Origin: Escherichia coli
GTDB lineage: Bacteria > Pseudomonadota > Gammaproteobacteria > Enterobacterales > Enterobacteriaceae
Length of the DNA stretch: 64,000 nt
NCBI RefSeq assembly: GCF_002854065.1
Contig: NZ_CP024147.1
Reading direction: 5' to 3' (one strand)
Each line of letters begins with the position of its first letter. Position 1 is the first letter of the stretch. Position numbers: made by a program. Below, piece by piece: positions 57,901 to 60,900 of this stretch.

Positions 57901-60900
57901 TGCATTTCAATGCACCACGATAGTGCAACAAACCTGGCGTGCACCATGATGATCATTCCATCAGGTACAGCTTCCCAGCGACGTATCAGTCACCGTAGAC
58001 ATTAAAGTCAAAATACTTTTTCGCCATCTTGTCGTAGGTGCCGTCCTGACGCAGCTCGCCAAGCGCCTTATTGAAGGCAGCCGTCAGTTCAGCATCATCT
58101 TTACGTAGCCCTACACCGGTGCCATCACCGAAGTATTTTTTGTCTTTCACTGATGAGCCAGCAAAGGCGAAGTCTTTACCAGCAGGTTGCTTGAGGAATC
58201 CTTCGCTGGCGGCGACTTCATCCTGTAATGCCGCATCCAGACGTCCTGCAGCCAGATCGGAATAGACCAAATCCTGGTTGGCATAGGCCACCACATCCAC
58301 ACCTTTGCTACGCCAGGTCTCGTTAGCGTAAGCTTCCTGGGTTGATCCCTGCAGCACACCAACATGTTTACCTTTCAGTGAATCCAGCGTTGGCTGAATC
58401 GGCGAACCTTTGGCGGCAATCAAACGAGAATCTGCGGCGTACAACTTGTCGGAGAAAGCAATCTCCTGCTGACGTTTATCGGTAATGGAGAGCGACGAAA
58501 TAATGGCGTCGATTTTTTTCGCTTTCAGTGAGGGGATCAGCGCGTCAAAGTCACTGGCAACCCAGGTACATTTCACCTGCATCCGTTTGCACATCTCGTT
58601 ACCGAGATCGATATCAAAGCCAACAAAATCACCTTTAGCATCTTTCGACGAGAACGGCGCATAGGTGGTATCGGTTCCGATACGTACCGTCTCCGGTAGC
58701 GCCGCATAGCTGGAAGCCGCTGCGGAGAGACCGACTAACAAAGACAGAGCGAGAATCGACTTCTTCATACATAACCCTCAAGTGAAAATGGCTTTTTTAT
58801 GTTGTGTATTGTGTTGTGTGTTGTGTGTTTGCAGGCTCTTTCATGCAGGTCTTATGCCATCTTGACGACAACAGTAACATTCAACGTTAAATGTGTTAAT
58901 AAGACGTTGCATTATTGTCCTGAAGTTGAAGATAGCAGGTATAGCGGTTGAATCGCAGCGTTTCGATTGAATGGCAGAAACAAAATGTCGAGGATTTGAT
59001 CGCGGTTGCAAAATTGCCCTGAAACAGGGCAACAGCGGAGTTATGCGCCCTGCCAGCGGGCAAAGAGATCTTCAGGAAGGGTTATTGCAAACTGGTCAAG
59101 AACACGATTAACCGTCTGATTTATCACATCATCAAGGGATTGCGGGCGATGATAAAACGCCGGAACGGGAGGCATAATCACCGCACCGATTTCTGCTGCC
59201 TGAGTCATTAAACGCAGATGACCTAAGTGCAATGGTGTTTCACGCACGCAGAGCACCAACGGGCGACGCTCTTTCAGCACCACATCTGCCGCACGGGTCA
59301 GTAAGCCATCAGTATAGCTATGGACAATGCCGGACAGGGTTTTGATTGAACAGGGTAAAATCACCATCCCCAGTGTCTGGAAAGAACCGGAAGAGATGCT
59401 GGCGGCAATATCGCGCGCATCATGCGTGACATCAGCTAATGCCTGCACTTCGCGCAGGGAAAAATCCGTTTCGAGGGATAAGGTCTGGCGCGCCGCCTGG
59501 CTCATCACCAGATGCGTTTCGATATCTGTGACATCGCGCAGAACCTGTAATAAACGCACGCCATAAATCGCGCCGCTGGCACCGCTGATGCCTACAATGA
59601 GTCGTTTCATAAATAGTTGCCCTGTCAGACTTGCAGGCAGACTTTGCAGGATTTCGGCGGGAGTTGCAAGTCAGGGTGCCAGACCGGCACCCTGAGCGAA
59701 GGCATCATCCTTCGTTATGCATTTCGAGATTTTCCACTTCGTTCTGACGTTGCACTGCTTTGGCGTCGTCATTACGTAAAGTATCGAGGAAATCGAGGTA
59801 GCCCTGATCAACATCTTTGGTGACGTAGACGCCGTTGAACACCGAGCATTCAAACTGCTGGATATCCGGATTTTCAGCGCGAACGGCGTCGATCAGATCG
59901 TTCAGATCCTGGAAAATCAACCCGTCAGCACCGATGATCTGGCGAATTTCATCTACTTCGCGACCGTGGGCGATAAGCTCCGTGGCGCTCGGCATATCAA
60001 TACCGTAAACGTTCGGGAAGCGAATTTCCGGTGCCGCAGAAGCGAGGTACACTTTCTTCGCTCCGGCTTCGCGTGCCATCTCGATAATCTGCTCAGAAGT
60101 GGTGCCACGGACGATGGAGTCGTCGACCAGCAGGACGTTTTTATCGCGGAACTCGGCGCGGTTGGCATTCAGTTTACGGCGCACGGACTTACGACGCAGC
60201 TGCTGGCCCGGCATGATGAAGGTGCGGCCAACATAGCGGTTTTTAACGAAGCCCTGGCGGTACGGTTTGCCCAGAATACGCGCAATTTCCAGCGCGATAT
60301 CACACGAGGTTTCCGGAATCGGGATCACTACGTCGATATCCAGATCTTCCCATTCGCGGGCAATTTTCTCGCCCAGTTTCGTGCCCATATTCACACGCGC
60401 GCTGTAAACGGAAATTTTGTCGATGAACGAGTCCGGGCGAGCAAAGTATACATACTCAAACAGGCACGGATTGCTGACCGGATTGTCAGCACATTGACGG
60501 GTAAACAACTGCCCTTCTTCAGTGATGTAAATCGCTTCGCCCGGCGCGACGTCACGCAGGAAATCAAAGCCCAGCGTATCGAGCGCTACGCTTTCGGAAG
60601 CGACCATATATTCTGTGCGGTTCTCGTCAATATCACGTTTTCCCAGTACCAGCGGACGAATACCGTTTGGATCGCGGAAAGCAACCATACCGTGGCCGAT
60701 AATCATCGCCACACAGGCATACGCGCCGCGGATTAAGCGGTTTGTAGCAGCGATGGCGGCGAAAATGTTGTCGGCTTCCAGCGGGTAGTGGCGGAAGTTG
60801 TCCAGCTCGCTGGCGAAGATATTAAGCAGAATTTCCGAGTCGGAAGTGGTGTTGATGTGGCGGCGTTTTTCTTCAAACAGTTTTTTACGCAACTCGTGAG

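What the first reader, a model, noticed from the sequence alone, without database searches (positions are those of the whole stretch)
58798..58859. GT-rich microsatellite-like tract in the predicted argT leader, just downstream of a sigma-54-type promoter
Upstream of argT (minus strand) the plus strand carries TGTTGTGTATTGTGTTGTGTGTTGTGTGTTTG (about 58799-58830), an imperfect (TGTG/TTGTG)n run. It is followed by a sequence that on the minus strand reads TGGCAT-N5-CTGCA (58844-58859), a good match to the sigma-54 -24/-12 consensus. If transcription starts about 12 bp downstream of the -12 element, the CA-rich complement of this tract is the first roughly 30 nt of the argT 5' UTR. CA-rich leaders can act as translational enhancers or protein-binding sites, and simple repeats are prone to length variation.
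Basis: partly seen in the sequence, partly recalled or inferred. Interest (0 to 1): 0.3.

Follow-up and report, generated by a model that had tools for sequence, protein, structure and literature searches.

The report
GcvB sRNA target in argT leader
The GT-rich run is the DNA complement of a CA-rich stretch at the start of the E. coli argT mRNA, made from a documented sigma-54 promoter, and it is the already known docking site of the small regulatory RNA GcvB, so the feature is ordinary apart from a rare 7-base duplication in this strain.

Summary
The window is the E. coli hisMQJ-argT-ubiX-purF region. The sigma-54 motif TGGCATAAGACCTGCA lies at 58859-58844 on the minus strand. That motif is the published sigma-54 ChIP-seq site upstream of argT in K-12 and Salmonella, and it is present upstream of argT in 80 of 80 Enterobacteriaceae genomes.

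The CA-rich RNA is complementary to the GU-rich R1 region of GcvB. K-12 forms 26 base pairs with two one-base bulges, starting at the predicted +1. argT is a textbook GcvB target: verified in Salmonella and a top RIL-seq/CLASH/MAPS partner in E. coli.

The tract also carries 11 ACA motifs, the translation-enhancing motif that GcvB silences in other targets. So "translational enhancer" is plausible, and "microsatellite" is not.

The tract length is almost fixed: 12 of 5,425 E. coli genomes carry indels of 7-37 nt. The window itself has a rare 7-nt duplication, shared with 3 genomes on two haplotype backgrounds. The duplication is predicted to leave GcvB pairing nearly intact.

A second, upstream promoter also transcribes the tract. 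Published Term-seq shows an abundant, unexplained RNA 3' end inside it.

Verdict: already known, low interest.

The parts
58800..58831 (-). CA-rich element of the argT 5' UTR (RNA: CAAACACACAACACACAACACAAUACACAACA). It is the GcvB R1 pairing site and an ACA-motif cluster. On the + strand it reads as the GT-rich tract of the finding.
   Evidence: duplex with GcvB nt 64-91. (11 ACA motifs). (3 of the window's 6 CACAACAY motifs). (conserved in 80 genomes).
58816..58829 (-). Two tandem AACACAC units (58829-58823 and 58822-58816). K-12 and about 99.8% of E. coli have only one, so this is the window's 7-nt duplication allele.
   Evidence: Alignments. Counts. Two haplotype backgrounds.
58844..58859 (-). 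Sigma-54 promoter TGGCAT-N5-CTGCA (GG at 58858-58857, GC at 58846-58845).
   Evidence: Identical to the ChIP-seq site OS22 of PMC4591121 and to the Salmonella site in PMC3844500. Present in 80/80 related loci.
58833..58833 (-). Predicted sigma-54 transcription start (T, 19 bp downstream of the motif centre). It gives a 65-nt 5' UTR here and 58 nt in K-12.
   Evidence: Rule and the value 58 from PMC4591121, applied to window coordinates. Predicted, not mapped.
58800..58833 (-). Full predicted GcvB-argT duplex footprint on the mRNA (+1 to +34). It has 27 bp with a 6-nt mRNA bulge caused by the duplication.
58793..58799 (-). UAAAAAA run immediately 3' of the pairing site. It is a candidate Hfq (A-rich, distal-face) contact. 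This is inference only.
   Evidence: Sequence. ARN motif concept from the abstract of PMC4104026. Not tested.
58802..58802 (-). Position equivalent to the very abundant Term-seq RNA 3' end of K-12 (34 nt upstream of the AUG, CACAA^CAU), inside the CA tract.
   Evidence: Adams et al. 2021, supplementary file 3, mapped.
58775..58779 (-). Shine-Dalgarno GAGGG, 19 nt downstream of the CA tract. [quoted passage not shown]
   Evidence: PMC2639303 states that GcvB binds argT upstream of the RBS.
57986..58768 (-). argT coding sequence (lysine/arginine/ornithine periplasmic binding protein, 260 aa).
   Evidence: RefSeq annotation under the match.
58921..58937 (-). Second, upstream argT promoter. It has an extended -10 TGCTATCTT (58937-58929) and a start at A58921, giving a 153-nt 5' UTR that also contains the CA tract.
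   Evidence: The start is inferred from the forward primer of the 'entire 5' UTR' argT construct in PMC7815308. The -10 block is invariant in 10 genera. The consensus scan found no -35/-10 pair.

Best explanation
The GT-rich tract is the template-strand image of a C/A-rich, unstructured element at the very 5' end of the argT mRNA.

Under nitrogen limitation, argT is transcribed from the sigma-54/NtrC-dependent promoter at 58859-58844, with a predicted start at 58833. Under other conditions it is transcribed from an upstream extended -10 promoter with a start near 58921. Both transcripts contain the tract.

The tract is the binding site for the GU-rich R1 seed region of the Hfq-dependent small RNA GcvB. 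GcvB is made when amino acids are plentiful and it represses amino-acid and peptide ABC-transporter mRNAs. Pairing takes place upstream of the Shine-Dalgarno sequence. It probably works by masking ACA/CA-rich translation-enhancing sequence and by promoting mRNA decay. By analogy with gltI, yifK and dppA, the same tract probably stimulates translation when GcvB is absent.

The repeat-like look follows from this role, because both R1 and its targets are built from reiterated (U)GUG / CAC(A) units. That makes the DNA mildly prone to slippage. The window carries a rare 7-nt tandem duplication (AACACAC). It adds three ACA motifs, lengthens the leader from 58 to 65 nt, and is predicted to bulge out of the GcvB duplex with little energetic cost.

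Shown here or in cited work: sequence, coordinates, complementarity, conservation, allele frequencies, sigma-54 occupancy, and the GcvB-argT interaction in vivo. Inferred: the exact +1, the enhancer function in argT, the mode of repression, and the neutrality of the duplication.
For: Gene and locus identity.

Sigma-54 site:
- Motif with correct GG/GC spacing.
- Identical ChIP-seq site with FAT 12 and a predicted start 58 nt from argT.
- RpoN gSELEX peak in the argT/ubiX spacer.
- Weak NtrC ChIP peak at argT.
- Salmonella argT is sigma-54 bound, 3.5-fold rpoN-dependent, and listed among four experimentally shown sigma-54 operons.
- Motif present in 80/80 Enterobacteriaceae argT loci.

GcvB pairing:
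- K-12 GcvB nt 64-91 form 26 bp (1 G-U, two 1-nt bulges, -36.8 kcal/mol) with leader nt +1 to +26.
- The window allele forms 27 bp with a 6-nt bulge, at -35.2 kcal/mol.
- After opening energies the values are -24.7 (window) against -26.3 (K-12).
- The tract is unpaired in the MFE and centroid folds of both the short and the long leader.

Literature:
- argT is a verified R1 target in Salmonella and is conserved in E. coli, with RIL-seq 5,814/2,754/40,963 chimeras, CLASH 205 and MAPS 64.2 (PMC9299463).
- It is bound upstream of the RBS (PMC2639303).
- TRIC-seq localises the interaction.
- ACA motifs in GcvB target sites act as translation enhancers (PMC3879156).

Conservation:
- The CA element starts at predicted +2/+3 in most of the 80 genomes.
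- Complementarity to R1 beats all 20 shuffles in 72/80 leaders. The median is -27.9 kcal/mol, against -14.9 for shuffles and -13.5 for upstream DNA.
- GcvB is at least 99% identical in 5,389/5,425 E. coli genomes.
Against: - The sigma-54 start site is predicted by rule and not mapped. EcoCyc status in PMC4591121 is 'P' (predicted).
- GcvB regulation of argT was verified experimentally in Salmonella. For E. coli the cited table says only 'Conserved'. I could not open the primary paper, Sharma et al. 2007, so its exact pairing coordinates are unchecked.
- Duplex energy alone is not discriminating. In a scan of the whole window the argT site ranks only 4th of 15,990 windows. The better-scoring sites rely on 5-10 G-U pairs, and the best one lies antisense to a gene.
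- No near-consensus NtrC site lies in the ubiX-argT spacer. The only one in the window is at 57911-57927, near hisJ.
- Enhancer activity of the argT tract itself has not been tested by anyone I could cite.
- GcvB of the window's own strain was not seen. It is assumed identical on the basis.
Confidence: 0.85

Rival explanations
1. The tract is a contingency-type microsatellite. Frequent slipped-strand changes in repeat number switch or tune argT expression between strains or clones.
For: The repeat units are real (periods 7 and 12). Tandem duplications of 7, 12 and 37 nt and a 12-nt deletion exist in E. coli genomes. The 7-nt duplication sits on two haplotype backgrounds that differ at 28 of 901 sites. 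Each is closer to non-duplicated haplotypes (12-14 differences), which suggests recurrence. Some genera have much longer arrays, such as (CAACA)n in Franconibacter pulveris and a long array in Trabulsiella.
Against: Only 12 of 5,425 complete E. coli genomes (0.22%) carry such alleles. 5,075 are at least 99% identical to K-12 over the 101-nt promoter-leader. The repeat is imperfect with 2-4 copies. No allele with two extra units was found. The variants all retain a strong GcvB site.
Confidence: 0.04
2. The tract acts only as a GcvB-independent translational enhancer, or simply as an unstructured leader (CA repeats / ACA motifs recruiting ribosomes). Its complementarity to GcvB would be incidental.
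For: There are 11 ACA motifs in the window leader and 8 in K-12. ACA motifs and CA repeats enhance translation in yifK, dppA and gltI (PMC3879156). The tract is unpaired in predicted folds.
Against: In vivo GcvB-argT chimeras are among the most abundant in three independent interactome methods, and Salmonella validation exists. A 26-bp near-perfect duplex is far more than composition alone gives, since shuffled leaders of the same composition have a median of -14.9 against -27.9 kcal/mol. In the cited cases enhancer and GcvB site are the same sequence, so the two roles are not exclusive.
Confidence: 0.05
3. The C-rich, G-free tract is a Rho utilisation site. It would cause premature termination in the argT leader, which would also explain the abundant 3' end at -34.
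For: The tract RNA has no G over 32 nt and is C/A-rich. The main text of Adams et al. groups argT among genes with significant Rho scores, and they found a very abundant 3' end 34 nt upstream of the AUG.
Against: The Rho score of the -34 end is 1.64, flagged 'No'. The argT 5' UTR+ORF fusion changed only 1.0-1.4-fold in rhoR66S. A 3' end only 25 nt after the sigma-54 start is too close for Rho loading from that start.
Confidence: 0.05
4. Besides being a target, the leader yields a stable 5' UTR fragment that ends inside the CA tract and acts as a decoy (sponge) for GcvB, as ChiZ does for ChiX or SroC for GcvB.
For: The Term-seq 3' end at -34 has 575,966 and 961,041 reads, among the highest in that table. 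It is not explained by Rho or by an intrinsic terminator, whose score is 1.27. The same study showed that 5' UTR fragments (ChiZ, IspZ) are sponges. argT is one of the top GcvB partners in RIL-seq.
Against: No experiment addresses it. The end cuts the GcvB site, removing the last base pair or two of the 26-bp K-12 duplex. The fragment could simply be a decay intermediate protected by the GcvB/Hfq duplex. No paper held in the library links argT and sponge function.
Confidence: 0.12
5. The tract works at the DNA level, not as RNA. It could be an initial-transcribed-region element affecting sigma-54 open-complex formation or promoter escape, or an alternating purine-pyrimidine (Z-DNA-prone) segment.
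For: It begins 2-3 bp after the predicted +1 in most genera. Short GTGTGT runs are present.
Against: What is conserved across genera is complementarity to GcvB R1 and CAACAC-type units, not purine-pyrimidine alternation. Length changes of 7-37 nt are tolerated. The same tract is internal in the transcript from the upstream promoter.
Confidence: 0.03

Closest known systems
GcvB R1 target sites (C/A-rich elements) in amino-acid/peptide ABC-transporter mRNAs: argT, dppA, oppA, gltI, livJ, livK (Sharma et al. 2007; Miyakoshi et al. 2021)
   Same: This is that very site in argT. It is a C/A-rich, single-stranded 5' UTR element complementary to the GU-rich R1 region. It lies upstream of the Shine-Dalgarno sequence, as reported for argT, livJ and gltI.
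   Different: The window allele has an extra AACACAC unit. The predicted duplex therefore has a 6-nt mRNA bulge and the leader is 7 nt longer. E. coli argT regulation is listed as 'conserved' rather than individually verified.
ACA-motif / CA-repeat translational enhancers silenced by GcvB (yifK, dppA, gltI; Yang, Figueroa-Bossi & Bossi 2014)
   Same: It is a cluster of ACA motifs (8 in K-12, 11 here) inside the GcvB pairing region, at a variable distance from the SD.
   Different: Enhancer activity has not been measured for argT. The cluster is at the extreme 5' end of the sigma-54 transcript, 19 nt before the SD, rather than abutting it.
NtrC/sigma-54 nitrogen-scavenging promoters of E. coli and Salmonella (glnA p2, glnH p2, astC, argT)
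   Same: It has the -24 GG / -12 GC motif with canonical spacing, sigma-54 occupancy, rpoN dependence in Salmonella, and Ntr regulon membership.
   Different: No near-consensus NtrC site lies in the E. coli ubiX-argT spacer and the NtrC ChIP signal is weak there. The strong site is about 0.93 kb away, upstream of hisJ.
5' UTR-derived sRNA sponges (ChiZ from chiP, IspZ from ispU) and the GcvB sponge SroC
   Same: A target mRNA leader gives an abundant short RNA end within or next to the sRNA pairing site.
   Different: No function, and not even a discrete band, has been shown for the argT leader fragment.
Simple-sequence contingency loci (phase-variable repeats in promoters or leaders)
   Same: It has short reiterated units, and length alleles arise by tandem duplication or deletion.
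   Different: The repeat is imperfect and low-copy. Variants occur in only 0.22% of genomes.

Membership tests
Sigma-54 (RpoN) dependent promoter | GG at -24 and GC at -12 with fixed spacing (TGGCAC-N5-TTGCA type) | tested here: met
   TGGCATAAGACCTGCA at 58859-58844 (-). It departs from the core consensus at two positions (T for C, C for T). The published PSSM score is 9.457.
Sigma-54 (RpoN) dependent promoter | Occupancy by sigma-54 holoenzyme and rpoN-dependent expression | not testable with these tools
   From the literature, for the identical sequence: ChIP-seq peak OS22 in K-12, a gSELEX peak, and a Salmonella ChIP-chip site with a 3.5-fold WT/ΔrpoN ratio.
Sigma-54 (RpoN) dependent promoter | Cognate enhancer-binding protein (NtrC) site within reach | tested here: inconclusive
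   No match with 3 or fewer mismatches to TGCACCN4TGGTGCA lies between 58860 and 59040. The only near-consensus site (1 mismatch) is at 57911-57927. The NtrC ChIP peak at argT is 5.4-fold, against 23.7-fold at hisJQMP.
Sigma-54 (RpoN) dependent promoter | Conservation of the motif at the orthologous position | tested here: met
   80 of 80 Enterobacteriaceae argT loci have TGGCA-N6-8-TGC[AT], located 66-105 nt before the ATG.
GcvB R1 target site | C/A-rich single-stranded element in the 5' UTR or at the RBS | tested here: met
   91% C+A over leader nt 1-34. The element is unpaired in MFE/centroid folds of the 98-nt and 183-nt leaders, and the opening energy is 2.4 kcal/mol.
GcvB R1 target site | Extended complementarity to GcvB R1 (GU-rich, about nt 63-92), including the CACAACAY-type core | tested here: met
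   26-27 bp with 1 G-U. There are three CACAACAY matches inside the tract. The CACAACAY consensus is recalled from my own knowledge of Sharma et al. 2011.
GcvB R1 target site | Physical interaction with GcvB on Hfq and GcvB-dependent repression in vivo | not testable with these tools
   From the literature: RIL-seq, CLASH and MAPS signals, 'Verified' in Salmonella and 'Conserved' in E. coli, and a TRIC-seq heat map.
GcvB R1 target site | Conservation of complementarity among enterobacteria | tested here: met
   72/80 leaders beat all 20 shuffles. The medians are -27.9 against -14.9 kcal/mol. E. coli GcvB was used for all species, which is an approximation.
ACA/CA translational enhancer | ACA motifs upstream of the SD whose mutation lowers translation | not testable with these tools
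   The motifs are present (11 here, 8 in K-12). Function is known only for yifK, dppA and gltI.
Microsatellite / contingency locus | Perfect or near-perfect tandem array of a short unit in many copies | tested here: not met
   TRF scores are 33 and 47 with 2.2-4.5 imperfect copies.
Microsatellite / contingency locus | Frequent length polymorphism among isolates | tested here: not met
   12 of 5,425 genomes carry indels of 5 nt or more, and 5,075 are at least 99% identical to K-12.
Known structured RNA family (Rfam) | Match to a covariance model | tested here: not met
   There were no hits at E<=1 in 57700-59200. The leader fold is no more stable than shuffles, with z=+0.6.

The most novel reading that the evidence does not exclude
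The GcvB docking site of argT may be a slippage-prone 'tuning' element whose rare length alleles change how strongly GcvB represses ArgT. The alleles found are +7 (arising at least twice), +12, -12, and +37 (which creates two complete sites). In parallel, the very abundant leader fragment that ends inside the tract may act as a GcvB decoy. Under that reading, tract copy number would also set how much GcvB is titrated away from its other targets.
Probability: 0.12. Interest if true: 0.5.

Novelty: already known. Interest (0 to 1): 0.15.

Why it matters
As it stands this is a re-discovery. Both the sigma-54 promoter of argT and the C/A-rich GcvB target in its leader are established parts of the nitrogen-scavenging and amino-acid-homeostasis circuits of enteric bacteria.

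Its practical value is as a positive control. A reader working from raw sequence found a real regulatory element and a real promoter, but it missed the trans-acting RNA, which is encoded about 0.5 Mb away.

Two things are modestly new. First, there is a catalogue of natural length alleles of an sRNA target site, including the window's own 7-nt duplication. These are ready-made test cases for how bulges, and doubling of a site, affect sRNA control. Second, a published but undiscussed abundant RNA 3' end falls inside the site.

Tried and rejected
- Rfam scan of 57700-59200 at E<=1 gave no family.
- Folding of the short and long leaders gave no structure beyond chance. The tract is simply unpaired.
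- The consensus sigma-70 promoter and terminator scan of 58700-59100 found nothing. The upstream promoter rests instead on a conserved extended -10 and on a published primer.
- I used raw duplex energy to single out the site within the window. It ranked only 4th of 15,990. I rejected this as a stand-alone statistic after inspecting the competitors, which are G-U-rich, in coding sequence or antisense.
- The first full-length GcvB duplexfold gave unrealistic 80-nt duplexes. I replaced it with R1-only duplexes plus opening energies.
- The NtrC motif search found none near the promoter.
- The plus-strand ORF 58799..58951 (50 aa) is rejected as coding, because natural 1-, 7- and 37-nt indels fall inside it.
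- A synthetic allele with two extra units had no match in E. coli.
- Sharma et al. 2007 and Thomason et al. 2015 are not held in the library. The supplements of Miyakoshi 2021 are not held either. The paper cap stopped two further look-ups.
- My interim note that only duplications occur was wrong. One search corrected it by finding six 12-nt deletion alleles.
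Full report
**Locus and observation**

The window is E. coli chromosome. ORFs and RefSeq annotation under near-identical matches identify, all on the minus strand:
- hisM and hisQ
- hisJ (56983-57765)
- argT (57986-58768)
- ubiX (59041-59610)
- purF and cvpA

It has 31 G/T of 32 bases. It is the only 32-nt stretch of that purity in the 64 kb, and none occurred in 200 shuffles. As a repeat it is weak, with imperfect periods of 7 and 12 and TRF scores of 33 and 47.

On the minus strand the sequence reads TGGCAT-AAGAC-CTGCA at 58859-58844. 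The coding-strand order is:
- sigma-54 motif
- 10 nt
- predicted +1 at T58833
- GCAAACACACAACACACAACACAAUACACAACAU
- AAAAAAGCCAUUUUCACUU
- GAGGG (Shine-Dalgarno)
- UUAUGU
- AUG

**The promoter is real and already documented**

- The 17-mer ATGGCATAAGACCTGCA is sigma-54 ChIP-seq peak OS22 of Bonocora et al. 2015. Its predicted start is 58 nt from argT, and EcoCyc status at that time was 'predicted' (PMC4591121).
- RpoN holoenzyme selects the argT/ubiX spacer in genomic SELEX (PMC8743547).
- NtrC ChIP-seq in N-starved cells gives a weak, flagged peak at argT (5.4-fold) and a strong one at hisJQMP (23.7-fold) (PMC4066584).
- In Salmonella the same sequence, TGGCATAAGACCTGCATG, is sigma-54 bound. 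argT is 3.5-fold rpoN-dependent and is counted among four operons experimentally shown to be sigma-54 dependent (PMC3844500; PMC4987338).
- I scanned one genome per species with ArgT and examined the 80 best loci, which span Escherichia to Franconibacter. All 80 have the motif 66-105 nt before the ATG.
- Applying the published rule to the window gives +1 at 58833 and a 65-nt leader (58 nt in K-12), so the tract occupies +3 to +34.
- I found no experimentally mapped sigma-54 start for E. coli argT. This step remains a prediction.

**What the tract is**

I fetched gcvB from MG1655. Its R1 region (GGUUGUGAUGUUGUGUUGUUGUGUUUGCAA, nt 63-92) is the near-perfect complement of the leader.
- In K-12, 26 base pairs form with a single G-U and two one-base bulges on the GcvB side. 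They span mRNA +1 to +26, at -36.8 kcal/mol.
- The tract is unpaired in predicted folds of both the short and the long leader. It costs only 2.4 kcal/mol to open.

This matches the literature.
- argT is a founding member of the GcvB regulon. It uses the R1 seed, is 'Verified' in Salmonella and 'Conserved' in E. coli, and has some of the highest RIL-seq, CLASH and MAPS signals (PMC9299463).
- It is resolved at 10-nt resolution by TRIC-seq (bioRxiv 10.1101/2025.09.11.675593).
- I could not open Sharma et al. 2007, so its exact footprint is unchecked.

Across the 80 genomes:
- the CA element begins at predicted +2/+3 in most;
- its complementarity to R1 beats all 20 shuffles of the same leader in 72 of 80 cases;
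- the median duplex energy is -27.9 kcal/mol, against -14.9 for shuffles and -13.5 for DNA just upstream of the promoter.

GcvB itself is at least 99% identical in 5,389 of 5,425 E. coli genomes.

One caveat applies. Duplex energy alone does not single out the site. It ranks 4th of 15,990 windows in the 64 kb. The higher-scoring sites use 5-10 G-U pairs, and the top one lies antisense to a 610-aa gene.

**How it probably works**

- GcvB pairs 19 nt upstream of the Shine-Dalgarno sequence, so simple occlusion of the ribosome-binding site is unlikely.
- In gltI, yifK and dppA the GcvB target doubles as a translation enhancer built from ACA motifs, and GcvB acts largely by silencing it (PMC3879156).
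- The argT leader has 8 ACA motifs in K-12 and 11 in the window.
- My inference is therefore that the tract boosts ArgT translation when GcvB is low (poor medium, nitrogen scavenging) and is masked when GcvB is high (rich medium).
The trans-acting RNA was the missing piece.

**A second promoter and an unexplained RNA end**

- Adams et al. [quoted passage not shown] That corresponds to A58921.
- Seven nucleotides upstream lies TGCTATCTT, an extended -10 element that is invariant in ten genera.
- argT therefore also has an upstream sigma-70-type start, giving a 153-nt leader here. The tract is transcribed from both starts.
- The same study's Term-seq tables list a 3' end at MG1655 2427825(-), 34 nt before the AUG (for coordinates). 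It has 575,966 reads in LB at OD 0.4 and 961,041 on another sheet.
- Its Rho score is non-significant (1.64) and its intrinsic-terminator score is 1.27.
- This position is window 58802, inside the GcvB site (CACAA^CAU). The paper's text never mentions GcvB.
- It may be a decay intermediate protected by the GcvB/Hfq duplex, or a leader fragment with decoy activity like ChiZ. Neither has been tested.
- Rho termination is unlikely, because the argT fusion changed only 1.0-1.4-fold in rhoR66S.

**Length variation**

The window differs from K-12 by a tandem duplication of AACACAC (58829-58823 and 58822-58816).

In 5,426 complete E. coli genomes, identity to the 101-nt K-12 promoter-leader breaks down as follows:

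| Identity to K-12 | Genomes |
|---|---|
| at least 99% | 5,075 |
| 95-99% (SNPs) | 340 |

The larger length alleles are:

| Allele | Genomes | Strains |
|---|---|---|
| +7 nt | 3 | CUWW06 (100% identical to the window), MEI003, GN06156 |
| +12 nt | 1 | E5 |
| -12 nt (the short form also seen in E. albertii) | 6 | AH21, OW1E2, E41, Z142-1, PCP06021, mip270_04 |
| +37 nt (doubles the whole site) | 2 | NT1N31, NT1N34, both from pigs |

- Three further genomes have 1-nt deletions, which may be sequencing errors.
- No allele with two extra units was found.
- The +7 allele sits on two backgrounds that differ at 28 of 901 sites. Each is closer to non-duplicated haplotypes (14 and 12-13 differences). 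It therefore probably arose at least twice.

Predicted GcvB duplexes are:

| Allele | Duplex energy (kcal/mol) |
|---|---|
| K-12 | -36.8 |
| +7 (6-nt bulge) | -35.2 |
| +12 | -38.7 |
| +37 | two full sites, -36.8 and -37.0 |
| E. albertii leader (same short tract as the -12 allele) | about -29 |

These values come; the -12 E. coli allele itself was not folded.

Between genera the tract ranges from 11 to 62 nt, with clear unit expansions in Franconibacter pulveris and Trabulsiella.

The tract can slip, but variants make up 0.22% of E. coli genomes. It is not a contingency locus.

**Verdict**

The feature is already known: the sigma-54/NtrC promoter of argT followed by the GcvB R1 target and ACA-rich leader. 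The only new items are the natural length alleles, including the window's own, and the link between a published abundant 3' end and the GcvB site. Interest is low.

Noticed in passing
window 57911-57927 (both strands) and 57814-57829 (-): The only near-consensus NtrC site in the 64 kb is TGCACCACGATAGTGCA (1 mismatch). It lies in the argT-hisJ spacer, about 90 bp upstream of a sigma-54-like TGGCAC-GATAA-GTGTA box whose -12 element lacks the GC. Published NtrC ChIP is much stronger here than at argT. The site may serve hisJ, the argT promoter 0.93 kb away, or both.
   Followed up: partly
window 58921-58937 (-): A conserved extended -10 (TGCTATCTT) lies 7 nt before A58921. That base is the 5' end of the 'entire 5' UTR' cloned by Adams et al. 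2021. It marks a second, upstream argT promoter with no recognisable -35, and the consensus scan missed it.
   Followed up: partly
window 58885-58910 (-): The block GCAACGTCTTATTAACACATTTAACG lies between the two argT starts and is almost invariant across ten genera. It looks like a protein-binding site (IHF or ArgR are guesses), but nothing was tested.
   Followed up: no
window 58802 (-), equivalent to MG1655 2427825: Published Term-seq shows one of the most abundant 5' UTR 3' ends of E. coli, 34 nt before the argT AUG and inside the GcvB pairing site. Neither Rho nor an intrinsic terminator explains it, and the source paper does not discuss it.
   Followed up: partly
window 59010-59032 (-): A hairpin TTGCCCTG-TTT-CAGGGCAA followed by TTTT starts 8 nt after the ubiX stop codon (59041-59043) and is conserved across genera. 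It is probably the ubiX terminator. The scan did not call it because the T run has only 4 bases.
   Followed up: no
L006 (E. coli B27, NZ_AP027424.1) 380-683: This strain lacks ubiX and the argT sigma-54 promoter. Sequence downstream of purF joins directly onto ...CATGAAAGAGCCTGCAAACAC, so only the leader from the -10 region onward is retained.
   Followed up: no
L011 (E. coli NT1N34) 1580-1660, and NT1N31: A 37-nt tandem duplication (GCCTGCAAACACACAACACAATACACAACATAAAAAA) creates two complete GcvB sites in one argT leader. It is a natural two-site allele.
   Followed up: partly
L084 (Franconibacter pulveris) about 1100-1165; L056 (Trabulsiella odontotermitis) about 1120-1170: The CA element is expanded to 62 nt as (CAACA)n in Franconibacter and to 47 nt in Trabulsiella, giving 79-nt leaders. 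This is the strongest sign that the tract grows by unit slippage over evolutionary time.
   Followed up: partly
window 42209-42248 (+): This C/A-rich stretch (AUGCAAACGCGACAAUAACAAACAAAG) gives the best GcvB R1 duplex energy in the window (-36.7 kcal/mol). It lies antisense to a 610-aa minus-strand ORF (40497-42329), so it is probably fortuitous.
   Followed up: partly
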